54,958 nt of DNA from Clostridia bacterium (GTDB lineage Bacteria > Bacillota > Clostridia > TANB77 > UBA1234), in assembly GCA_900753135.1 (NCBI GenBank), contig CAADXZ010000200.1, positions 1-54,958 of the forward strand, in the 5' to 3' direction. Positions within the stretch are counted from its first letter, which is position 1. Each line of letters opens with the position of its first letter. Both the position numbers and the translations under genes were made by a program. Positions 17,252 to 36,097 of this stretch are shown here, one piece after another. Below the pieces are notes generated by a model. The model was not told where the DNA came from, ran no database searches, and worked only from the letters and a program-made list of their open reading frames with translations.

Positions 17252-18112
17252 TTATAGGCTTTCCCATCTGCCATATATTCCGCAAGGAAGTATTATACTA
17301 CTATCTTTCATTGGCAACCCAACTTCACCACAAGATACTTTACCTTTCTTTTTGATTATCATGCTCAATATATTAGCAAGAATTGTTGGAGATAAGCCAG
17401 TTGTATATGAGTTTATTAAAAAGAATAATGGATTATCTGATAAGATTTTACTACATAACTCAACTAACATATATAAACTTTCTTCTATATTCCATACTTC
17501 ACCATTTGTGCCTCTTCCATATGATGGAGGATCCATAACAATTGCGTCGTATTTATTTCCTCTTCTTATTTCTCTTTGCACAAATTTTATTACATCATCA
17601 ATAATGAATCTAACAGGCTTATCTGACAAACCAGAAGAAGCTACATTTTCCTTTGCCCAAGCGGTCATACCTTTTGATGAATCAACATGACAAACAGAAG
17701 CTCCTGCTGATGCACAAGCAACAGTTGCTCCACCTGTATACGCAAATAGATTTAATACTTTAATAGGTCTCTTTACACTTTTTATTTTATTCATCATAAA
17801 TTCCCAATTGACTGCTTGTTCCGGAAACAAACCCGTATGTTTAAATCCCATAGGTTTTAAATTAAATACTAAATCCTTATATCTGATCTGCCAAGCTTTT
17901 GGAACGTTCTTTATATATTCCCATTCACCACCACCAGACTTACTTCTGTGATAATGTGCGTTTGCTTTTTTCCATAATGCTGGCTTGGACTTTTCTTTCC
18001 ATATTATTTGTGGATCTGGTCTTATTAAAATTATGTTTCCCCATCTTTCAAGCTTTTCACCATCAGCCATATCAAGTATTTCGTAATCTTTCCATTTATC
18101 AGAAATAATCAT
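17252..18112 (-). CDS. Class I SAM-dependent (rRNA-type) methyltransferase
   Basis: LNLFAYTGGATVA (SAM motif I) and VMDPPSYGRG (motif IV). Confidence 0.75.
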   Translation of the reverse strand: MIISDKWKDYEILDMADGEKLERWGNIILIRPDPQIIWKEKSKPALWKKANAHYHRSKSGGGEWEYIKNVPKAWQIRYKDLVFNLKPMGFKHTGLFPEQAVNWEFMMNKIKSVKRPIKVLNLFAYTGGATVACASAGASVCHVDSSKGMTAWAKENVASSGLSDKPVRFIIDDVIKFVQREIRRGNKYDAIVMDPPSYGRGTNGEVWNIEESLYMLVELCSKILSDNPLFFLINSYTTGLSPTILANILSMIIKKKGKVSCGEVGLPMKDSSIILPCGIYGRWESL

Positions 18113-18144
18113 ATTATTTTTCTCCTAAACATATTTTTTAAAAG

Positions 18145-19409
18145 GTGATTAATTTGTTAAAATTTATTCTTTTCATTTTTTTAGCTATACTTTATCTACT
18201 GATTCCAAAAGACTCAAGCTTTAAAGTTCTTAATTTTAGAAAGCACTTATTAACTTGCATACTTCTTGGAACAATGATATGTATAATTATATTTTCAAAT
18301 AGTACATACTTAGCCGCAAAAGATGGTTTCATGTTATGGGTAAATAACTTAGTGCCATCCTTATTACCGTTTTTGATTTGCATAAATCTATTAAAAAGCA
18401 CTAATTTTATTAATGTAATGCGGAAAATTATTAACACCAATTATGCGCCCGCTATTTAATATTCCTGGTAGTGGTGCATTTGCTGTTGCACTTGGAATAA
18501 CTTCCGGCTACCCTGTTGGTGCAAAAATCAGTAATGAATTATTTGAAAGTGGCGAATGCACAAAGCAAGAAGCTGAACGATTACTTTCATTTACCAATAC
18601 TTCTGGCCCACTATTTATCGTAAGTGCAATTGGCATTGGTATGTTTAATAATCCACAAATAGGAACTACACTTCTTATTACACATTTTTTAGCAAGCTTA
18701 ACTGTTGGTCTACTATTTAAGAAATATAAATCAAAGAAATCACCTAAGTCTTGTGACATTATAACATATAAAGAAACAAAAATAAACAATAATGCGAAAT
18801 TATGTCTATCAAATCTGGGGCTTTTCATGGGAAAAGCAATTGAAGATGCAATATCTACTTTGCTATTAATTTGTCGGCTATATTATATTTTTTGCAGTGT
18901 TAAGCAACATCCTAGAAAGAGTAGGATTCTTTACTTACATAGTGCATTTAATGACTCCTTTATTAAATATATTCAATATATCAGAAGCATATGTAGTTAG
19001 TGTTTTAAAGGGAATTATTGAGGTTACTAATGGTTTGAAAGCATTAACTAGCATTAATGTAGAAGCAACTATAACAAAGATATGCATTGCAGCCTTTTTA
19101 CTAGGTTTTGGTGGCATCTCAGTACTGATGCAAGTTTCGAGTATTATTTCAAAAAATAACTTATCAATAAAACCATATTTATTAGGCAAATTTCTTCATG
19201 GTTTTATAGCGTCATTATATACATTTCTTGCTTTAAAATATACAAATCTTGCGTCTATAGCTACACTAACTGTATTTAACTACTCAAATAACAGCAAGCC
19301 ACTAATCATTAATGAAACTTCAAATTTAATTAGTGTCATATGTGGAATAAGTTTGTTTGCAATAGTGACTAGAATTGTAATAGCTGTAGCTGCAAGAAGT
19401 AAGAAATAA
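18145..19409 (+). pseudogene. ylbJ: ylbJ-like sporulation integral membrane protein (nucleoside-recognition domains), disrupted by two +1 frameshifts
   Basis: Three consecutive track ORFs in frames 1, 2 and 3. Deleting C18421 restores ...NVM-GKLLTPIMRPLF. Deleting C18875 restores ...LLLIC-GYIIFFAVLSNILER. Confidence 0.75.
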
Positions 19410-19484
19410 TATGTAACTAAAATATTGCTTTTTTATGTCGAATTCTGTATGATATCTTTGTGCAAACATAGGAGGAATATTATT

Positions 19485-21185
19485 ATGAAAAAATTTTTAC
19501 ATAAAGCATTTATTTGCATATTTATAGTTTATTTGGCATTCGTAACATGTCTCGAAATAAAATCCATATTTACTAAAGGGAGTATAACAATAGAACCGGC
19601 AGACAATATACATCAGGCTCATTCAAGTTCAGGAGATGACATCAATAAAACTCCAAATAATGAAAAAGACACTAATGAGAAGACAAATGGCAATGTTAAA
19701 ACTGAACAGCAATCTATCAAAGAAATTACTTCTGGAGATGTGGAAAAACAAAAATGCACATATCAGATAAAAACACCTAGCGGAGAAGTTTTTTCGTCTA
19801 ATATCTACATCGGCGATCCTTCAGCATATAACAAAGTTGAAGGAATAACAACATTTAGAGGTAACAATTACCGTGATACCGCTTTTTATGGCAAGTTAGA
19901 TGTGAACGAAAAAAAACTTTCAAAAATATGGACTGCAACCATAGGTCAAACTGATAACTGGACTGGTGTTGGCTGGAACGGTCAACCTTCAATCATAAAA
20001 TGGGACTCAAAAGTAAGAAGTCAAATGAATTTATATGATAACTTTAAAAATAAAGAGGATTTTGTAGAAGTTATCTATGGAACATTAGATAGTCATATTC
20101 ATTTTTACGATTTAGAAACAGGTGAAAGTTCAAGACCTTCGATAAAAGTTCCAAGTTCAATAAAAGGTAGTATCACAATAGATCCACGCGGTTATCCACT
20201 TTTATATGTTGGACAAGGCATAAATGCCGTCAGTGGTGATCCTGTAGAATATGGTTATAGAATTTTCAGCTTAGTTACTGGTGAAGAATTATACTTCATA
20301 AATGGACGTGACAAATTCGCATATATTGGTTGGGGAGCTTTTGATGGCAATCCACTAATTGATACAAAAAATGATACACTAATTCTACCAGGAGAAAATG
20401 GAATCATATACATTTCAAAGCTTAACACAAACTATGATGAGATAAATGGTACTATTAGTATTAATCCTAACACTACAAAGTACAGGTACCTTGTTAATGG
20501 TAAAGCTGGTGGAATGGAAAATTCTCTTACGATATATAAAAATTTTGCATACTTTGCAAATAACAATGGAAACGTTCAATGTTTAGATTTAACAACATTA
20601 ACTCCACTTTGGAATCATGATATTATTGACGATTGTGACTCAACAATTGGTCTTGAGGAAGAACAAAATAATGTTTATTTATATATCGGAAACGAGGTGG
20701 ATAAGAGAAAAACAACGTCACCATCTATTGTTAGAAAGATAGATGGAAAAACTGGCAAAACACTTTGGGAGTACACCTGTGATTGTCTTTATGATGCAAA
20801 TGTAAATGGTGGTGTTCTTTCATCTCCTGTTATAGGAAAAGGTAAAATCTCAGATATTGTTATTTATAACTTTTCAAAAGTTACAACTTTAAGAAATGGG
20901 AAAATGGTTGCATTGAGCAAAAAAGATGGTACCGTCAAATGGGAAAAAGATTTGCAATATTACTCTTGGAGTTCACCAGTAGCTGTTTATTCGAATGATG
21001 GTACACCTTATATCGTATTTTGTAATTCTATTGGTCAAGTATTACTAATTGATGCTTTAACTGGCGAAACGCTATATATTCTTAACTCTGGTGGTGGAAA
21101 TTTTGAAGGTTCTCCAGCTATATTCAATAATAAAATTGTTATAGGTTCTAGAGGAAAAAGAATCTTTTGTATTGAAATAAAGTAA
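19485..21185 (+). CDS. Membrane-anchored PQQ-like beta-propeller repeat protein
   Basis: GGAGG upstream of the ATG at 19485, an N-terminal TM helix, and repeated ...D..TG...W... blades. Confidence 0.7.
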   Translation: MKKFLHKAFICIFIVYLAFVTCLEIKSIFTKGSITIEPADNIHQAHSSSGDDINKTPNNEKDTNEKTNGNVKTEQQSIKEITSGDVEKQKCTYQIKTPSGEVFSSNIYIGDPSAYNKVEGITTFRGNNYRDTAFYGKLDVNEKKLSKIWTATIGQTDNWTGVGWNGQPSIIKWDSKVRSQMNLYDNFKNKEDFVEVIYGTLDSHIHFYDLETGESSRPSIKVPSSIKGSITIDPRGYPLLYVGQGINAVSGDPVEYGYRIFSLVTGEELYFINGRDKFAYIGWGAFDGNPLIDTKNDTLILPGENGIIYISKLNTNYDEINGTISINPNTTKYRYLVNGKAGGMENSLTIYKNFAYFANNNGNVQCLDLTTLTPLWNHDIIDDCDSTIGLEEEQNNVYLYIGNEVDKRKTTSPSIVRKIDGKTGKTLWEYTCDCLYDANVNGGVLSSPVIGKGKISDIVIYNFSKVTTLRNGKMVALSKKDGTVKWEKDLQYYSWSSPVAVYSNDGTPYIVFCNSIGQVLLIDALTGETLYILNSGGGNFEGSPAIFNNKIVIGSRGKRIFCIEIK

Positions 21186-21190
21186 CACAA

Positions 21191-21232
21191 AAAAGACTGA
21201 AAACTCATACATTTTCAGTCTTTTCTTATTTT
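21191..21232. terminator. Bidirectional terminator between convergent genes
   Basis: 12-bp stem AAAGACTGAAAA / TTTTCAGTCTTT with an 8-nt loop and T/A runs on both sides. Confidence 0.8.
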
Positions 21233-21241
21233 TTTCAAATA

Positions 21242-22453
21242 TTATTTATTTAATATCTGCACTTCTCCACCTTTATTTGAAACTCTTACTAACATTGGAA
21301 CATATATATATCCTTCACTTGAAGACATATTTTCTATATCTTCATCCTCATCATATGTAACGTTTCCAATGTCAAATTTGTAGTACAAATAATCTCCTAT
21401 ATTATATGCATAATCTATCGTTATCATATTCGTATCTTTAACAGGGTTTTCAATTTGACCAACATCTTTTCCTTTATTATATAAATGTATTACTCCATTT
21501 ATGTCTTTTAAATCATAGTTTCTTTGTATATCTGTTTTAATTTCATCATGAGTTTCTTCTATCTTATCATTCTTTATAATGTACATTTTTTCAGTATCAC
21601 CACTCATATTCGCATAAAACCAAGGCGTATCATTATCTTCATTCATGAACATATATATGTTTTGATATTCATTCAAATTAATTTTTTCTTTCTTGCCATC
21701 TTTCATATTAATTTTCAAAACATAGCTTTCTCCATCTATGTCAGTTGCCACACAATATACATAATTTTTTGTTGGAACAATTTGCAATACTTCATCATAT
21801 TTAGAAAGTTCATCACTCAAAGTAACTAATGCAAATTCATTTTTGGTTAATGCTACAATGAGTGTATTATTTTTATGACCAGGTGTTGTGTAATATATAT
21901 AATTATCGTCCTCACTCATTTTTTTCATATTTGCACTTGAAATTTGATTAACGTTATTTATGGCATTAAGAGTTTTACTATAATCAGCACTATATATATC
22001 GTTAGCATACAAGAAGACTACTTTTTTGCCATCAAAATATTGTAATTCACCTTGGCAAAAGAATTTCATATCATTTTTTTCTAAATCATACTGATATGTA
22101 TTATCTGCATAAACTATATATATCATATTGTTATAAAAAAACATATTATGATTGCTTATTGCTGTTTTCTTAAAATCGATAACATCTGTTATGGTTATAT
22201 TCTTATCCTTTGCTGAAATTCTGCTTATATTACTTTGAAAGTCTCCACTTTCATTTGTATATTCGTTTTGGTAATATATCATGCCATTATATTGAACTAT
22301 ATGCGACCAATTATTCAAAATATCATTTGAATAGCTATCATTATCTTTTTTATTATTCTTACTAACTTGACTGCCAAGAACTACAAATATTGCAATTAAA
22401 ATTATAGTTAAAACACTTGCTATAAGCTTAAGTTGTTTTAAATTTAACTTCAT
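21242..22453 (-). CDS. Hypothetical membrane-anchored protein (Tyr/Asn-rich, possibly beta-propeller)
   Basis: ORF track 403 aa, N-terminal TM helix, GAGGAGGGG SD. Confidence 0.65.
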   Translation of the reverse strand: MKLNLKQLKLIASVLTIILIAIFVVLGSQVSKNNKKDNDSYSNDILNNWSHIVQYNGMIYYQNEYTNESGDFQSNISRISAKDKNITITDVIDFKKTAISNHNMFFYNNMIYIVYADNTYQYDLEKNDMKFFCQGELQYFDGKKVVFLYANDIYSADYSKTLNAINNVNQISSANMKKMSEDDNYIYYTTPGHKNNTLIVALTKNEFALVTLSDELSKYDEVLQIVPTKNYVYCVATDIDGESYVLKINMKDGKKEKINLNEYQNIYMFMNEDNDTPWFYANMSGDTEKMYIIKNDKIEETHDEIKTDIQRNYDLKDINGVIHLYNKGKDVGQIENPVKDTNMITIDYAYNIGDYLYYKFDIGNVTYDEDEDIENMSSSEGYIYVPMLVRVSNKGGEVQILNK

Positions 22454-31888: not shown

Positions 31889-31938
31889 CAATTAAAATAT
31901 GCAAAAGAGTGCTAAATTCTCAGCACTCTTTTGCATAT
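31889..31938 (-). terminator. Strong terminator closing the 36.1-31.9 kb operon
   Basis: 17-bp perfect stem ATATGCAAAAGAGTGCT / AGCACTCTTTTGCATAT with an 8-nt loop, then TTTAAT. Confidence 0.8.
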
Positions 31939-31944
31939 AGGAAG

Positions 31945-32535
31945 TTAAATATACTTTAAAACTTCCCTAGGAGGTAGCCTAGCATCTATTTTCACAATCT
32001 GGACATTGCTTGCTTCAAACAATTGAGTAATACCAATTACTGTTTCTTCAAATTGTTGAAAACGTTTTTCGATTATCTCCGTCGTGTCGTCCTTACGTTT
32101 TACAAGAATAGTATCGCAACAATCACATATTCCAATTCTTTTTGGCTTTTTAAAAGATTTGGAATATACACTCCTACAAGTAGGACAAATCAATCTATCA
32201 GTTGCTCTTTGAATTACTAAATCTTTATCGGCAACAATATAAAATAATTTATCCACCTGTAAATTGTTATTACTTAAAAGTGCCTCTGCTTGTCCAAGAG
32301 TTCTAGGAAAGCCATCAATGATAATATCACTTCTAGAATTAGCAGTAATCGCTTTGTCTATTAATGATATTATTAATTCATCACTTGCCATCGTTCCTGC
32401 TTCGATATCCACTCCTGCATCTTTCAACAACTTACTTGCCGAAATACATTTCATGCCAAGTTTGGTTAACTCTTCAATCCGTGTCCCTTTCCCACTAGCT
32501 GGTGCTCCGATGAAAACAAAAATCTTTCTCTTCAT
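31945..32535 (-). CDS. Divergent adenylate kinase paralogue with Zn lid
   Basis: GAPASGKGT P-loop, DGFPRTLGQAEAL, CPTC...CDCC lid, KRKDD; AAGGAG 8 nt upstream of the ATG at 32535. Confidence 0.75.
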   Translation of the reverse strand: MKRKIFVFIGAPASGKGTRIEELTKLGMKCISASKLLKDAGVDIEAGTMASDELIISLIDKAITANSRSDIIIDGFPRTLGQAEALLSNNNLQVDKLFYIVADKDLVIQRATDRLICPTCRSVYSKSFKKPKRIGICDCCDTILVKRKDDTTEIIEKRFQQFEETVIGITQLFEASNVQIVKIDARLPPREVLKYI

Positions 32536-32571
32536 CTTTCTCACTCCTTATATAATTTTATTTTTAGTATA

Positions 32572-33831
32572 CTAACAATTTTTATGTAAAAAGCAAAAAG
32601 TATCTACTCCATTTATATCTCCATTTAGATAGCATCTATATCTACAGCCACCCCTGCAATGATCATAACTATCACAATTATTGCAAGTTTCATTGCCTTC
32701 AAACTCTCTAAAGTTCTTTAGTATATGACTATTATTCCATATGTCTGTCAATGTGTTTTCCTTTACATTTCCACATATAAATTCATCTGGATAATGAGAA
32801 CATGGTCTAACATTTCCTAACGGATCCACACAAATGCTTTCCTTTCCAGCAAAGCAACCAAAGCCTAATTCTTCTATATATTCATAATCTTCATCACAAT
32901 ATATATTAAGTGGAGCTCTAATTTTTATTAAACCACTATATTTACTTCTTAACCTTTCAATATTTTGTATTGTTTTTATATATTCATCTTGTGATATTAA
33001 AATATTTATTTTATTTGTAATAGCTCTTCCATCTTCTCTAACCGTATTGAACTTTACAGTGTCACACTTATATTTAATTCCTATTCTTATGATATCTTCA
33101 ATTTGATTTATATTATTTTTCATGAGAGTTGTTTTCAAAGAATACTTGCCTTTATAGTACTTCTTTAATAATTCTAAATTATTTGTTACTTTATAAAACG
33201 TTCCGCTCCCTCTTACAAAATCAAAACTTTTTTCATTACCACCGTCAAAACTTATAGTAAGATTGCTTATTTTTAATTCATTAAGTTTGAGAATTACTTT
33301 CTCGTTAAATATCGTACCATTTGTTGTGATAGATACACTTATATTATTTCTATTACATTCTTCAATAAAAAAATATATATCTTCCGAACAAAACGGCTCA
33401 CCACCAGCAATAGAAATCTTCTGTATTCCAAGTTCTTTTATTTGATTTATCAGATTAAATTTTTCTTTTAAAGTCAATTCCAATTTTTTCTGTACTCCAG
33501 ACTCAGTAAAGCAATGCTTACATCTCAAATTACACTTATATGTAATATCATAAAATATTCTAAATGGTGCTGACAGATAATTCTCAGACGCTTTATTATT
33601 AGCATTCTTTATATCAATTTTTACAACACCCAATTTTACTAATTCACGTAACATTTCAAAAATATCGTTTTTATCTAACTCTTGTAATTCTTCAACATTT
33701 TTTTCATATTGGATATCGCTTAGCATTTGTATTAAATTATAAGTTTCTTTATCTATTGCAATGTTTTCTTTGGTATTGTCGTCATATATAATTCCCCCAA
33801 AAAATTCTTTTTTCAATATTAAATTTCCCAT
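32572..33831 (-). CDS. Radical SAM/SPASM maturase-type enzyme with N-terminal RRE(PqqD)-like extension
   Basis: CNLRCKHC; C-terminal CFAGKESICVDPLGNVRPC ... CNNCDSYDHCRGGCRYRC; about 85 aa precede the core. Confidence 0.85.
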   Translation of the reverse strand: MGNLILKKEFFGGIIYDDNTKENIAIDKETYNLIQMLSDIQYEKNVEELQELDKNDIFEMLRELVKLGVVKIDIKNANNKASENYLSAPFRIFYDITYKCNLRCKHCFTESGVQKKLELTLKEKFNLINQIKELGIQKISIAGGEPFCSEDIYFFIEECNRNNISVSITTNGTIFNEKVILKLNELKISNLTISFDGGNEKSFDFVRGSGTFYKVTNNLELLKKYYKGKYSLKTTLMKNNINQIEDIIRIGIKYKCDTVKFNTVREDGRAITNKINILISQDEYIKTIQNIERLRSKYSGLIKIRAPLNIYCDEDYEYIEELGFGCFAGKESICVDPLGNVRPCSHYPDEFICGNVKENTLTDIWNNSHILKNFREFEGNETCNNCDSYDHCRGGCRYRCYLNGDINGVDTFCFLHKNC

Positions 33832-33899
33832 ATATTACTCCTTATTTTAGATAAATCCTATATCTAATACATAATTTATACCTACCTGCTAATTAAATA

Positions 33900-33962
33900 T
33901 TACATGTGTAAATTTTTTAATTTTTTTATATGTTTTTTGTGTACTTTTTTATTTGTTTTCAT
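33900..33962 (-). CDS. Untracked 20-codon ORF MKTNKKVHKKHIKKLKNLHM (candidate precursor peptide)
   Basis: AAAGGAGGAG lies 6 nt upstream of the ATG at 33962 and the TAA stop is at 33900-33902. The ORF sits between the two radical SAM genes. Confidence 0.5.
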   Translation of the reverse strand: MKTNKKVHKKHIKKLKNLHM

Positions 33963-34009
33963 AATCAACTCCTCCTTTCAATCAAAAGTTTATATTAGAT
34001 ATAGTATAA

Positions 34010-34906
34010 TCAATTAATAGTTTTTTTGTCGTATGCTTTATATCTATTTATAGCACACTTCATACAAAATTCGTTTTTATGATCAAACTCTTTTTTTAAT
34101 ATCTTATCTAAACCGCCACTTTTTATATTTCCAAGTAGCAATGCACCTTCTGTAAATGCACAAGGAAATACATCTCCTTTATAATCTATATAAAGAGAAG
34201 TCGTTCCACATAAGCAATTTTGTTTTTGAGTTAAATATTTTTCAACGGGTAATTCTACCTTGCATTTTACTTCTTTCTCTTTACAATACACCAAAATATC
34301 ATCTAGTAATTTCATAAATTCATCAAATGGAATAGGAATATTATTATTTTCTTTCGCTCTTCCAAATAAGTTTGTAGAATTTACCTTCAAGTTCTTAATA
34401 CCAGATTCATCGCAAAAATTAATGATATCAAAAATATCTTCCTTATTATACTTTGATATTGTTGTCCTAACTGAAATTCTATCAATAATTTCTCTATGTC
34501 CAGATAAGGTTTTCAAGTTATTGATTACATATTCTACATTTATCCCTTCTCGCACATTATTTGAATTAATATTTGAAAGTGAATCTAAACTAATTGTTAC
34601 TTTTACATTTTGATTTTCTTGTAAGCATTTAATAATATCATCATTCAAAATTGTTCCATTAGTCGTAATTGATATTTGCATATCCCTGTTATCATTAATA
34701 ATCTCTACAATATCCTTTAAAAAAGGCTCTCCACCACCAATAGAAACTTTATTAATTTTATTTTTTCTTATTTCAATAAACGTTTTTAGAATTTCATCGT
34801 TAGAAAGTTCTGCTTTATCCTTTGTACTACTAGAATTTGTAAAACAATATTTACAATTTGCATTGCACAATTTAGTTATATCAAAAAAAATCTTACTTAT
34901 CATCAT
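34010..34906 (-). CDS. Radical SAM enzyme with partial SPASM/twitch C-terminus
   Basis: CNANCKYC; CLCGTTSLYIDYKGDVFPC ... CMKC; its start overlaps the upstream gene by 14 nt. Confidence 0.85.
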   Translation of the reverse strand: MMISKIFFDITKLCNANCKYCFTNSSSTKDKAELSNDEILKTFIEIRKNKINKVSIGGGEPFLKDIVEIINDNRDMQISITTNGTILNDDIIKCLQENQNVKVTISLDSLSNINSNNVREGINVEYVINNLKTLSGHREIIDRISVRTTISKYNKEDIFDIINFCDESGIKNLKVNSTNLFGRAKENNNIPIPFDEFMKLLDDILVYCKEKEVKCKVELPVEKYLTQKQNCLCGTTSLYIDYKGDVFPCAFTEGALLLGNIKSGGLDKILKKEFDHKNEFCMKCAINRYKAYDKKTIN

Positions 34907-35384
34907 ACTCACCTAATTCATTTAAAATTTCAAATTCAACTCCAATAGTTTCTTGTAAGGCTGTACATTTAGCATTAAAAAGTGAATAATTATTTTTATT
35001 ATTATTTCCAAAACAAGTATTCATAATAACAATCGCAGTTTCAGCTTTGTGTTTTCCAATTCCGGGGAATGAGCACAATCTTCGTTCTATTGTTTCATTG
35101 TTTCCTTTAAAAATATCTTTTACATCGATATAATTTTCTAATACATTCACAACAGAACTATATAAATATATACTCATGCTTTTAGGGAATCTGTGTAAAA
35201 CGGGCTTTACCAGCATCGCACTTTCGATTTTTTCATAAGTTAATAAATTATATGATGTTTCGAAATTCTCTATCAAATTTAATCTATTCATTAATTCTCT
35301 TGTGTTTAACAAAACTTGCATTGCTTTCTGAGACTGATTTAATATTGTAGCCCATAATAAATATAATGCTTGTCTATTATTCAT
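34893..35384 (-). CDS. Short helix-hairpin-helix protein (endonuclease III-like HhH only)
   Basis: FPGIGKHKAETAIVIMNTCFG; GGAG 8 nt upstream of the ATG at 35384; ATGAATAA overlap with the MazG-like stop. Confidence 0.65.
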   Translation of the reverse strand: MNNRQALYLLWATILNQSQKAMQVLLNTRELMNRLNLIENFETSYNLLTYEKIESAMLVKPVLHRFPKSMSIYLYSSVVNVLENYIDVKDIFKGNNETIERRLCSFPGIGKHKAETAIVIMNTCFGNNNKNNYSLFNAKCTALQETIGVEFEILNELGEYDDK

Positions 35385-35736
35385 TATTTTTGCTCCATTT
35401 TCTTTCAATATTTTCTTTCTCTTTGCTTAACACTGCAGAATACAAATCAATATTTAATACATTGCACAATTCTGTAAGCACAATAAAAACATCTGCAACT
35501 TCCTCTTCAATTTCTGTATAATGGCTAATTTTATCTTTATCGATAGTGCCACCCGGTAATTTTTTTCGAATAGCTTTTGCTAATTCACCCGTTTCCTCCA
35601 ATATAAGTAACATTTCATCTTGTATACTTTTGTTTGAAAAACCTCTAAGTTCAATAACATTTTTAATATACTTTTGTAACTCTGGTAAAGTTGTTCTATC
35701 GCTTAATTGTGAGAATAAACTTTTTTGATTATCCAT
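35377..35736 (-). CDS. MazG-like nucleoside triphosphate pyrophosphohydrolase (single domain)
   Basis: EETGELAKAIRK and EEVADVFIVL metal-binding helices; 119 aa; AAAGGAG SD. Confidence 0.8.
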   Translation of the reverse strand: MDNQKSLFSQLSDRTTLPELQKYIKNVIELRGFSNKSIQDEMLLILEETGELAKAIRKKLPGGTIDKDKISHYTEIEEEVADVFIVLTELCNVLNIDLYSAVLSKEKENIERKWSKNNE

Positions 35737-35750
35737 ACAAGTTCTCCTTT

Positions 35751-35948
35751 CTAATAACTTTTAAGATTTTTATTAATAAAATAGGATGCCTTCACACTTG
35801 CATAATTGTGTGAAAACATCCTTAAAAAAGTCAATATTTTTGCAATATATAGAGAGAAAATGAAGGAAAAAAGAGTGAAAGAAACCCTAGTTAAAACATA
35901 TTCGCTAACTACAATATTTGATAATAATTCAATAATTATATCTTTCAT
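35751..35948 (-). CDS. Possible 65-aa single-TM protein or leader ORF (MKDIIIELLSNIVV...)
   Basis: GGGAGGAAG lies 6 nt upstream of the ATG at 35948, but the ORF reads through the terminator hairpin. Confidence 0.35.
   Translation of the reverse strand: MKDIIIELLSNIVVSEYVLTRVSFTLFSFIFSLYIAKILTFLRMFSHNYASVKASYFINKNLKSY
35770..35821 (-). terminator. Leader terminator/attenuator 35 nt upstream of the MazG-like start
   Basis: Minus-strand RNA reads GGAUGUUUUCACAC, a 10-nt loop, GUGUGAAGGCAUCC (14 bp including 2 G-U), then UAUUUUAUU. The G-U pairs would be A-C mismatches on the other strand. Confidence 0.65.
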
Positions 35949-36068
35949 TCTAAACTTCCTCCCAATACTTACTATAGATAAAATAACTCTCATCATTGCA
36001 AGATTTTATATTACTACCTTCAACTGTTACTTTTGATGTTTTGCTTCAGAAGTAATTCTATGTGCAGG

Positions 36069-36097
36069 AATATATCATGAATATTAAATATTGTCAA
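36069..36097 (-). promoter_or_regulatory. Near-consensus sigma-A-type promoter of the operon
   Basis: Minus strand reads TTGACA (36092-36097), 17 nt, TATATT (36069-36074). Confidence 0.6.

What the first reader, a model, noticed from the sequence alone, without database searches (positions are those of the whole stretch)
33900..33962. Hidden 20-codon Lys/His-rich ORF with a perfect Shine-Dalgarno between the two radical SAM genes
On the minus strand, AAAGGAGGAG is followed after 6 nt by ATG AAA ACA AAT ... CAC ATG TAA. This encodes MKTNKKVHKKHIKKLKNLHM and is too short for the ORF track. It starts 47 nt after the stop of the upstream radical SAM gene. It ends 68 nt before the RRE-containing SPASM enzyme. 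This is the classic position of a precursor such as PqqA or MftA. The peptide has no Cys, so sactipeptide or ranthipeptide chemistry is excluded. It has three His and nine Lys. His/Lys C-C or C-N crosslinks, or C-terminal processing, are conceivable but are pure inference.
Basis: partly seen in the sequence, partly recalled or inferred. Interest (0 to 1): 0.7.

Follow-up and report, generated by a model that had tools for sequence, protein, structure and literature searches.

The report
Conserved micro-gene: radical SAM precursor peptide
The 20-codon ORF is a real, widely conserved micro-gene that most likely encodes the substrate peptide of the two flanking radical SAM enzymes, in a peptide-modification cassette found from gut Clostridia to rhizobia that no searched library or paper describes.

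Summary
It has 8 Lys, not 9.

It is not a chance ORF. I examined 22 loci carrying the same cassette, from Clostridia, Fusobacterium, Rhizobium/Bradyrhizobium, Gammaproteobacteria, Myxococcota and Actinobacteria. All 22 encode a short SD-preceded peptide ending [KR]x[HR][IF]xK[LVI]xx[LFM]-H-[M/H/N]-stop.
- The penultimate His is invariant.
- Codon differences are mostly third-position or synonymous.
- In three distant loci the gene has moved to a different slot in the cassette.

The 419-aa enzyme has a predicted beta3-alpha3 RRE domain, CX3CX2C and a 7-Cys SPASM motif. Its best structural match is SuiB, over its full length. The 300-aa enzyme is its paralog.

The conserved core is peptide, two rSAM enzymes, an HhH-GPD-like protein and a MazG-like pyrophosphatase. 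Nucleotide-kinase-like and nucleotidyltransferase genes are often added. No conserved protease or exporter is present.

No NCBIfam model reaches its cut-off, and ten literature searches found nothing. The chemistry is unknown. My best guess is an MftC-like radical modification of the C-terminal His-X dipeptide.

The parts
36069..36097 (-). Promoter-like site (TTGACA-17-TATATT with an extended TG), upstream of the cassette
   Evidence: 11 of 12 consensus matches. This is a consensus match only.
35377..35736 (-). MazG-like NTP pyrophosphohydrolase (119 aa), a conserved cassette member (cluster c2/c10)
   Evidence: Pfam MazG hit at 8.3e-07 and PHROG pyrophosphatase hits. Present in 19 of 20 loci scanned; also annotated in L031 and L033.
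34893..35408 (-). HhH-GPD-like protein (cluster c1). The likely true start is the ATG at 35384, giving 163 aa. Conserved cassette member.
   Evidence: TIGR03252-like but below cut-off. Invariant LHRFP and GIGxHKA motifs. AF2 model pLDDT 87. The top 30 PDB fold hits are all HhH-GPD glycosylases, but weak (E about 1e-2, TM about 0.5). Wider relatives reach the Pfam HhH-GPD threshold.
34010..34912 (-). rSAM-B: 300-aa radical SAM enzyme with a partial SPASM/twitch-like region (4 invariant auxiliary Cys). It is a paralog of rSAM-A and lacks an RRE in Clostridia.
   Evidence: Pfam Radical_SAM and SPASM hits. hhalign against the rSAM-A profile gives E 7e-36. Invariant C16/C20/C23 and C233/C251/C283/C286.
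33985..34007 (-). 5' arm of a long-range stem that brackets the peptide cistron
   Evidence: 23-nt arms, 83% complementary; equivalent stems with different sequences in relatives.
33969..33978 (-). Shine-Dalgarno AAAGGAGGAG, 6 nt before the ATG
   Evidence: An SD is present before the homologous ORF in the other loci.
33900..33962 (-). Precursor-peptide micro-gene, MKTNKKVHKKHIKKLKNLHM. The conserved C-terminal 12 residues are KKHIKKLKNLHM, with an invariant penultimate His.
33855..33877 (-). 3' arm of the bracketing stem
32572..33831 (-). rSAM-A: 419-aa enzyme with an N-terminal RRE-like domain (about aa 1-70), a radical SAM core (C100/C104/C107) and a full 7-Cys SPASM motif (C326, C344, C383, C386, C392, C396, C413)
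31945..32544 (-). Divergent adenylate-kinase-like P-loop kinase (199 aa) and last gene of the operon. This is an accessory member: other loci carry dTMP-kinase/dNK-like kinases instead.
   Evidence: Pfam ADK and ADK_lid hits. TIGR01351 scores 137 bits against a cut-off of 168. Kinases in other loci.
31897..31938 (-). Intrinsic-terminator-like hairpin (19-bp stem followed by a T-run) that ends the operon

Best explanation
The ORF is a genuine translated micro-gene. It encodes the precursor (substrate) peptide of a conserved two-enzyme radical SAM cassette. The proposed steps are as follows. (1) The operon MazG-like / HhH-GPD-like / rSAM-B / peptide / rSAM-A / kinase is transcribed from one promoter. 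The peptide cistron, with its own strong SD, sits inside a long-range RNA stem, which may give it separate processing or stability. (2) The basic, partly hydrophobic segment ([KR]x[HR][IF]xK[LVI]) is bound by the N-terminal RRE of rSAM-A. (3) rSAM-A, followed by its paralog rSAM-B, carries out radical chemistry on the C-terminal dipeptide His-(Met/His/Asn). His is always exactly penultimate and the last side chain is variable. The most likely chemistry is therefore MftC-like: H-abstraction or oxidative decarboxylation at the C-terminal residue, with or without a new bond to the His. (4) The co-conserved nucleotide-type enzymes either decorate the modified C-terminus or handle a nucleotide-like product. 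These are the MazG-like pyrophosphatase and the HhH-GPD-like protein, often joined by an NMP-kinase-like protein and a nucleotidyltransferase. Shown here: the gene is real, conserved and tied to the cassette, and the enzyme has the architecture of an RRE-dependent peptide maturase. Inferred: binding, the site and type of chemistry, and the roles of the accessory enzymes.
For: A homologous peptide gene is present in 22 of 22 cassette loci. These are the window, L001-L015, L025, L027, L028, L030, L031 and L033. The C-terminal 12 residues align without gaps and the penultimate His is invariant. Codon differences are concentrated at the third position (64/43/165 in proteobacterial pairs), with many synonymous changes, across 25-70% GC. 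In L009, L030 and L031 the peptide gene sits between rSAM-B and the HhH-like gene rather than upstream of rSAM-A. This argues against a cis-acting leader of rSAM-A. Further members in the protein database are all labelled 'hypothetical protein'. The rSAM-A model has pLDDT 90, with beta3-alpha3 at residues 4-67. Its best fold hits are SuiB (TM 0.74, full length), CteB, SkfB and PqqE, and HMM alignment to CteB and SuiB includes their N-terminal domains. CX3CX2C and the 7 SPASM Cys are invariant. rSAM-B is a paralog, and the proteobacterial rSAM-B retains the N-terminal domain. The cassette is conserved and shuffled in gene order across phyla.
Against: There is no direct evidence of translation or of any modification. 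No protease or exporter is conserved in the cassette; ABC genes occur only in some loci. The constant companions are nucleotide-type enzymes, so the rSAM enzymes could act on a nucleotide with the peptide playing another role. More distant relatives (L032, and partly L016) sit with RelA/SpoT, NUDIX, CYTH and B12-rSAM genes, and I found no such peptide there. Clostridial rSAM-B lacks an RRE. Some MAG loci (L005, L007, L008) have split rSAM genes.
Confidence: 0.8

Rival explanations
1. The peptide is a real, conserved small basic protein but not a substrate. It could be a nucleic-acid-binding peptide, or an activator, scaffold or specificity subunit for enzymes that in fact modify a nucleotide or DNA. 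The rSAM enzymes, kinase, MazG and HhH-GPD-like protein would then form a nucleotide-modification or conflict system.
For: The accessory genes are all nucleotide-type: MazG, HhH-GPD-like, ADK/TMPK/dNK-like kinases and NTases. The peptide is extremely basic. The cassette often lies on conjugative or mobile DNA. Distant rSAM relatives occur with RelA/SpoT plus NUDIX and without an obvious peptide.
Against: rSAM-A has the full architecture of RRE-dependent peptide maturases, and its closest structures are peptide-modifying enzymes. The strict conservation lies in the last two residues plus a short recognition-like motif, not in a DNA-binding fold. Functional units can be as short as 12-13 aa. Viperin scores are far below cut-off: 62.7 bits for the paralog rSAM-B against 180, with no viperin model among rSAM-A's 25 best families.
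Confidence: 0.12
2. The ORF is a regulatory leader peptide (uORF) whose translation or stalling controls expression of the downstream rSAM-A, with the flanking stem acting as an attenuator.
For: In most loci it lies in the 5' region of rSAM-A. A long-range stem brackets it. Conserved C-terminal residues are a feature of some arrest peptides (own knowledge).
Against: In L009, L030 and L031 the gene has moved to lie between rSAM-B and the HhH-like gene, away from rSAM-A. Fusobacterium L025 lacks room for a bracketing stem, with only 17 nt between rSAM-B and the peptide gene, and the proteobacterial loci were not examined for one; the peptide is conserved in all of them. No terminator follows the ORF in the window. 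The motif is conserved across phyla with very different ribosome and codon contexts.
Confidence: 0.05
3. It is a chance ORF in AT-rich intergenic DNA, where AAA-rich sequence gives Lys-rich pseudo-ORFs.
For: The window is about 28% GC in this region, so AAA/AAT-rich short ORFs are common.
Against: The same C-terminal motif is encoded at 25-70% GC with different codons. It is always followed by a stop, always preceded by an SD, and always inside the same cassette.
Confidence: 0.01

Closest known systems
Mycofactocin system (MftA precursor with MftC rSAM/SPASM)
   Same: A short precursor whose functional residues are the strictly C-terminal dipeptide. A SPASM radical SAM maturase is present, and MftC is one of the two best NCBIfam hits for rSAM-A (158 bits) and the best for proteobacterial rSAM-B (122 bits). 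No exporter is present.
   Different: Scores are far below the MftC cut-off of 265. The C-terminus is His-(Met/His/Asn), not Val-Tyr. There are no MftB/D/E/F homologs. The RRE is fused rather than separate. Two paralogous rSAM enzymes are present. The accessory genes are MazG, HhH-GPD-like, kinase and NTase types.
PQQ system (PqqA with PqqE/PqqD)
   Same: A tiny precursor gene next to an rSAM/SPASM enzyme. PqqE is a top sequence and fold hit. The product of that system is an intracellular small molecule.
   Different: There is no Glu-X3-Tyr motif and there are no pqqB/C/F genes. PqqE scores 136 bits against a cut-off of 381. The RRE is fused here.
Streptide system (SuiA with SuiB) and sactisynthases (CteB, SkfB, AlbA)
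   Same: These are the best full-length structural matches and share the RRE + rSAM + SPASM architecture. The precursor gene is adjacent to the enzyme.
   Different: The conserved core has no Trp, so no Lys-Trp crosslink, and no Cys, so no thioether. Streptide and sactipeptide clusters encode an exporter or protease, and this cassette core does not.
C-terminal tailoring of lasso peptides by kinase and nucleotidyltransferase-fold enzymes (paeninodin and pseudomycoidin types; own knowledge, not tested here)
   Same: A RiPP whose C-terminal residue is tailored by a kinase and an NTase-fold enzyme. An NTP_transf_5 or NTP_transf_2 gene and P-loop kinases recur in these loci.
   Different: The kinases here are NMP-kinase-like (ADK/TMPK/dNK), not HPr-kinase-like. 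There is no lasso cyclase or protease. MazG and HhH-GPD-like partners are not known from those systems.

Membership tests
RiPP precursor with RRE-dependent radical SAM/SPASM maturase (general class) | Short ORF adjacent to, and on the same strand as, the maturase, and conserved across homologous clusters with a conserved core motif | tested here: met
   Present in 22 of 22 loci. The C-terminal 12 residues align without gaps and the penultimate His is invariant.
RiPP precursor with RRE-dependent radical SAM/SPASM maturase (general class) | RiPP recognition element (PqqD-like beta3-alpha3 winged helix), either in the maturase or encoded nearby | tested here: met
   The AF2 model has strands at 4-9, 12-17 and 22-27 and helices at 28-37, 42-49 and 54-67, with pLDDT 83-91. 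Full-length Foldseek matches to SuiB and CteB. HMM alignment covers the CteB and SuiB N-terminal domains. This is fold-level evidence; no Pfam PqqD hit was obtained for this domain.
RiPP precursor with RRE-dependent radical SAM/SPASM maturase (general class) | CX3CX2C radical SAM cluster motif plus a 7-Cys SPASM motif | tested here: met
   C100/C104/C107 and C326, C344, C383, C386, C392, C396, C413 are invariant in 25 sequences. Pfam Radical_SAM and SPASM hits.
RiPP precursor with RRE-dependent radical SAM/SPASM maturase (general class) | The peptide is translated and covalently modified by the enzyme | not testable with these tools
   Needs Ribo-seq or peptidomics, plus co-expression or in-vitro reconstitution with MS.
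Mycofactocin | MftC equivalog score, MftA C-terminal Val-Tyr, and mftB/D/E/F genes | tested here: not met
   TIGR03962 scores 157.9 bits against a cut-off of 265. The peptide ends in H-[M/H/N]. No such neighbours are present.
PQQ biosynthesis | PqqE equivalog score, PqqA Glu-X3-Tyr motif, and pqqB/C/D genes | tested here: not met
   TIGR02109 scores 135.9 bits against a cut-off of 381. The conserved core has no Glu or Tyr.
Sactipeptide / ranthipeptide | Cys donor residues in the core peptide | tested here: not met
   The window peptide has no Cys, and nor do 16 of 19 aligned homologs. AlbA, StsB and PapB scores are far below cut-off.
Streptide / WGK-type Lys-Trp crosslinked peptides | Conserved Trp (and Lys) in the core, and a maturase reaching the family cut-off | tested here: not met
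   No family member has Trp. WgkB scores 133.6 bits against a cut-off of 650.
Prokaryotic viperin (pVip) with kinase | Viperin equivalog score and a nucleotide substrate with no peptide or RRE | tested here: not met
   NF038283 scores 62.7 bits against 180 for rSAM-B. PADLOC pVip hits of 65-75 bits are at the generic rSAM level. An RRE and a SPASM motif are present.
Microcin C-like peptide-nucleotide RiPP | ThiF/E1-like adenylyltransferase (MccB) and a C-terminal Asn precursor | tested here: not met
   No ThiF-like gene appears in any locus annotated or scanned. Only L009 ends in Asn.
HhH-GPD DNA glycosylase superfamily (for the 171-aa neighbour) | HhH motif, Gly/Pro-rich loop and a catalytic Asp | tested here: inconclusive
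   The fold hits are only glycosylases, but weak. The GIGxHKA hairpin is invariant, yet no invariant Asp follows it. Relatives reach the Pfam HhH-GPD threshold.

The most novel reading that the evidence does not exclude
The cassette makes a peptide-templated product that has no precedent among RiPPs. The invariant C-terminal His of a 12-55-aa ribosomal peptide would be converted by two radical SAM enzymes. It would then be joined to, or processed like, a nucleotide by the co-conserved MazG-like pyrophosphatase, HhH-GPD-like N-glycosidase-type protein, NMP-kinase-like enzymes and nucleotidyltransferase. The result would be a peptide-nucleotide conjugate or a His-derived nucleotide-like small molecule. 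Given the frequent location on conjugative elements, it could be used in inter-bacterial or anti-phage conflict.
Probability: 0.2. Interest if true: 0.88.

Novelty: new variant of a known kind. Interest (0 to 1): 0.66.

Why it matters
The finding defines an uncharacterised family of radical SAM-modified peptides. Precursors can be as short as 12-13 residues, which is far below usual gene-calling limits, and the one invariant core residue is a penultimate His. The family occurs in human gut Clostridia, oral Fusobacterium, plant-associated rhizobia (including a conjugative plasmid), soil Gammaproteobacteria, Myxococcota and Actinobacteria. Radical SAM chemistry on a C-terminal His-X dipeptide has not been described in anything I could search. 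The constant partnership with nucleotide-type enzymes (MazG, HhH-GPD-like, kinases, NTase) is unusual for RiPPs. It suggests either new tailoring chemistry or a new class of peptide-derived metabolite. The system is small, at 5-6 genes with a 20-aa substrate, so it is directly testable by co-expression and mass spectrometry.

Tried and rejected
- **Peptide family scans.** Pfam was run only on the neighbouring proteins, not the peptides; NCBIfam scans of the peptides gave no hit.
- **Enzyme family scans.** NCBIfam scans of both rSAM enzymes gave many hits, all far below the curated cut-offs, so I assigned no known equivalog.
- **PADLOC.** Only generic pVip-level rSAM hits were found. I rejected membership in a known defence system.
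- **Literature.** Ten full-text searches covered gene combinations and the peptide motifs themselves. None returned anything relevant. Subscription-only papers were not searchable.
- **RNA searches.** Rfam and tRNA scans of the window found nothing.
- **Alignment folding.** RNAalifold on a MAFFT alignment of the intergenic regions predicted no pairs. MAFFT could not align the lineage-specific stem arms. I evaluated the stem per locus with RNAfold/RNAduplex against shuffles instead.
- **Rejected peptide candidates.** For L009, L030 and L031 I first looked upstream of rSAM-A and found only unconvincing candidates, such as MELKWW and MQKRIGEVGKISWREDWLVS. I rejected these after a motif scan located the true homologs downstream of rSAM-B.
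- **The HhH-like protein.** A PDB sequence search found nothing. PHROGs gave no hit, and Pfam on the close members gave none except one HhH-GPD match (P0169, 5e-07). Only fold search and wider relatives link it to HhH-GPD.
- **A weak phage lead.** A match to the helical domain of a phage 5-hmdU DNA kinase (E 1.4) is a lead only and is not used.
- **Phage collection.** No homolog of rSAM-A was found.
- **Upstream 81-aa ORF.** The ORF at 35751-35996 is not conserved in relatives and is not counted as part of the cassette.

Full report
**1. The observation**

On the minus strand, ATG lies at 33962-33960 and TAA at 33902-33900. The ORF encodes MKTNKKVHKKHIKKLKNLHM. AAAGGAGGAG (33978-33969) precedes the ATG by 6 nt. 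The gap to the stop of the 300-aa radical SAM ORF (34010) is 47 nt. The gap to the start of the 419-aa ORF (33831) is 68 nt. The only error in the finding is the Lys count, which is 8 rather than 9.

The region is about 28% GC, so a Lys-rich short ORF alone proves little. Strong SD+ATG sites are informative in this genome, though. Of 30 such sites in the window, 24 start ORFs of at least 60 aa.

**2. The neighbourhood**

All genes lie on the minus strand. In order they are:
- a MazG-like pyrophosphatase (35377-35736);
- a 171-aa HhH-GPD-like protein (34893-35408);
- rSAM-B (34010-34912);
- the small ORF;
- rSAM-A (32572-33831);
- a divergent adenylate-kinase-like protein (31945-32544).

A promoter-like site lies at 36097..36069. 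A 19-bp terminator hairpin lies at 31938..31897, directly after the kinase gene. Together they delimit one operon.

**3. Conservation of the ORF, the decisive test**

rSAM-A has about 100 close homologs. A genome scan with their alignment returned 15 orthologous loci (L001-L015). Further loci came from exact-protein look-ups and from a Rhizobium conjugative plasmid.

In every Clostridia-type locus the gap between rSAM-B and rSAM-A holds an SD-preceded ORF:
- MKKNNKKTVKKHIKKLKNLHM
- MKKAQTTKKHIKVLSNLHM
- MKNASKKHIKSLGDLHM
- MCKIKPLDELHM
- MKKNSKKNKHFKNISDLHM (Fusobacterium)
- MKQRIKKLSELHM

In Rhizobium, Bradyrhizobium, Gammaproteobacteria, Archangiaceae and Spirillospora, a 35-55-aa ORF upstream of rSAM-A ends in ...KKRIFKVSTFHH (variants: FFKVRTDHH, IFKISTMHH, IYKISTFHH).

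The last 12 residues of all of these align without gaps. The consensus is [KR]x[HR][IF][KFY]K[LVI][SK][NDET][LFM]H[MH]-stop, and the penultimate His is invariant. The motif is encoded by different codons at 25-70% GC. Third-position differences dominate: 64/43/165 by codon position among proteobacterial pairs, and 142/58/187 among clostridial pairs. There are 118 and 137 synonymous codon differences respectively.

In three more distant loci I first found nothing convincing upstream of rSAM-A. A motif scan then located the gene between rSAM-B and the HhH-like gene, each copy with a strong SD:
- L031: MKRRIFVISDLHM
- L009: MKSVKNKKRFFKVSTSHN
- L030: MKKVKKSKRIRKLCMCHM

The peptide gene is therefore present in 22 of 22 cassette loci. 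It keeps its motif while moving within the cassette. That is what a trans-acting gene product would do, and not what a cis-regulatory leader would do.

A profile search of the protein database found 17 called proteins. Apart from the 7 weakest (E > 0.01), they end in KRIFKVST[FLM]HH or a close variant; one weak hit (P0186) ends FKVSNFH. None carries an informative name; those with a source name are called 'hypothetical protein'.

**4. The enzymes**

rSAM-A carries CX3CX2C (C100/104/107) and the canonical 7-Cys SPASM motif. Both are invariant in 25 sequences.

Its AlphaFold model (pLDDT 90) starts with three strands and three helices at residues 4-67, the RRE topology. The best PDB fold matches are:
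- SuiB, aligned over its full length (TM 0.72-0.74);
- CteB, SkfB, PqqE and anSME.

The profile also aligns co-linearly with CteB and SuiB from their N-termini.

rSAM-B is a paralog of rSAM-A (hhalign E 7e-36). Proteobacterial rSAM-B (E 3e-46) retains the N-terminal domain, and clostridial rSAM-B has lost it. rSAM-B has four invariant auxiliary Cys.

No NCBIfam equivalog cut-off is reached. The best scores are NirJ2 at 159.5 bits (cut-off 500), MftC at 157.9 (cut-off 265) and PqqE at 135.9 (cut-off 381).

**5. The cassette**

Clustering and HMM searches across the loci show a conserved core:
- the peptide;
- rSAM-A;
- rSAM-B;
- the HhH-GPD-like protein;
- a MazG-like protein.

The gene order differs between phyla.

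Recurrent accessories are:
- P-loop NMP-kinase-like proteins. These are ADK-like in the window and L014, and dTMP-kinase/dNK-like in L006, L009, L025, L027, L030, L031 and L033, with weaker matches in L010, L015 and L028.
- Nucleotidyltransferases, seen in L010/L015 (where L010 is inferred from homology to L015), L027 and L025.
- A TPR protein in the proteobacterial and actinobacterial form.
- PqqD plus a CPBP protease in L009, and in the more distant L016.

ABC transporter genes are nearby in only some loci, and no protease is universal.

The HhH-like protein has a confident model (pLDDT 87). Its top 30 PDB fold matches are all HhH-GPD glycosylases, but the matches are weak (E about 1e-2). 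It keeps the hairpin GIGxHKA and an LHRFP motif but has no invariant Asp. Its wider family has 715 representatives at E <= 1e-10. That family includes members that pass Pfam HhH-GPD, and fusions to DUF6884, DUF7662, DUF7669 and methyltransferase domains.

The cassette is often on mobile DNA:
- T4SS, TrbL and topoisomerase genes in Fusobacterium and Clostridia contigs;
- MobA/TraD in Bradyrhizobium;
- integrases and transposases in L031;
- a MOBQ conjugative plasmid in Rhizobium.

In the window and in L003 it sits among housekeeping genes.

**6. An RNA feature around the gene**

In the window a 23-nt inverted repeat (33855-33877 / 33985-34007, 83% complementary) brackets the SD and the ORF.

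Equivalent long-range stems occur in L001-L008 and L027, with lineage-specific sequences:
- TCCTATATCTA / TAGATATAGGA
- ACCCGCATCTA / TAGATGCGGGT
- a 24-bp stem in L005
- TTTGTGTGC / GCACACAAA

They are stronger than shuffled controls in 8 of 10 loci, with z from -2.4 to -9.2. My inference is that an RNA stem encloses the precursor cistron, plausibly for processing or differential stability. It is not universal: Fusobacterium lacks it.

**7. Mechanism**

Three things are shown:
- the gene is real, is under purifying selection and is tied to the cassette;
- rSAM-A has the architecture of an RRE-dependent peptide maturase;
- a paralogous second enzyme is present.

The rest is inferred. The [KR]x[HR][IF]xK[LVI] segment would be the recognition sequence, and the His-X C-terminus would be the site of chemistry. 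His is always exactly penultimate while the last side chain varies (M, H or N). This points to chemistry that needs the C-terminal backbone or carboxylate, as in MftC acting on Val-Tyr (established knowledge of mycofactocin), plus the imidazole. The nucleotide-type enzymes may tailor the product, or may treat it as a nucleotide-like molecule. I hold the chemistry loosely, at about 0.25 confidence. I hold the precursor role firmly, at about 0.8.

**8. Comparison with known systems, and novelty**

Membership in each of the following is not met on its defining features (see the membership table): mycofactocin, PQQ, sacti/ranthipeptide, streptide/WGK, pVip and microcin C. The system works like an RRE-dependent rSAM RiPP system. 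It differs in its core motif, in its very short precursors, in its paired paralogous enzymes and in its accessory set. None of the libraries or the searchable literature describes it, although subscription-only papers could not be searched. I rate it a new variant of a known kind.

Noticed in passing
window 33855-33877 and 33985-34007 (minus-strand RNA); L001-L008 and L027 intergenic regions: A long-range inverted repeat brackets the peptide cistron, including its SD. Relatives have stems at the same place but with different sequences (four sequence classes). They are stronger than shuffles in 8 of 10 loci. This may be an RNA processing or stability element. Fusobacterium lacks it.
   Followed up: partly
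L016 3505-9775; L032 167-4413: More distant rSAM/SPASM relatives (32-34% identity) sit in different nucleotide-flavoured contexts. L016 has CYTH, a dTMP-kinase-like gene, a B12-rSAM, PqqD and a CPBP protease. L032 has RelA/SpoT, a second rSAM and NUDIX. I found no H-[MHN]-stop peptide in either.
   Followed up: partly
window 34893-35408; proteins P0189-P0335: The 171-aa HhH-GPD-like protein belongs to a large, mostly unannotated family, with 715 representatives at E <= 1e-10. Some members are fused to DUF6884, DUF7662, DUF7669 or a methyltransferase domain. The canonical catalytic Asp is not conserved in the cassette-linked members.
   Followed up: partly
window 39091 (+), 45645 (-), 54634 (-), 18947 (-): Four other strong SD+ATG sites start short ORFs of 53, 51, 14 and 11 codons. 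They might be further unannotated small genes.
   Followed up: no
L005 5953-6797; L007 7001-8282; L008 6654-7935: In three MAG loci one of the rSAM genes is split into two ORFs, by frameshift or stop, while the peptide gene stays intact. The cause could be assembly error or decay of the cassette.
   Followed up: no
window 31945-32544: The operon's last gene is a divergent adenylate-kinase paralog with a Cys4 lid. It scores below the TIGR01351 cut-off (137 against 168 bits) and is followed directly by a 19-bp terminator. A related ADK-like gene flanks the cassette in a Gammaproteobacteria MAG (L014).
   Followed up: partly
window 18001-22000 and 52001-54000: GC skew, otherwise strongly negative across the window, is near zero at 18-22 kb (-0.005) and weaker at 52-54 kb (-0.118). 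This probably marks stretches of opposite coding strand.
   Followed up: no
L033 (Rhizobium sp. T1473 plasmid NZ_CP149876.1) 6789-6924: The 45-aa precursor ORF ...KKRIFKVSTFHH is absent from the gene table held for this conjugative plasmid. An identical peptide is annotated only as a hypothetical protein in R. leguminosarum (P0181).
   Followed up: yes
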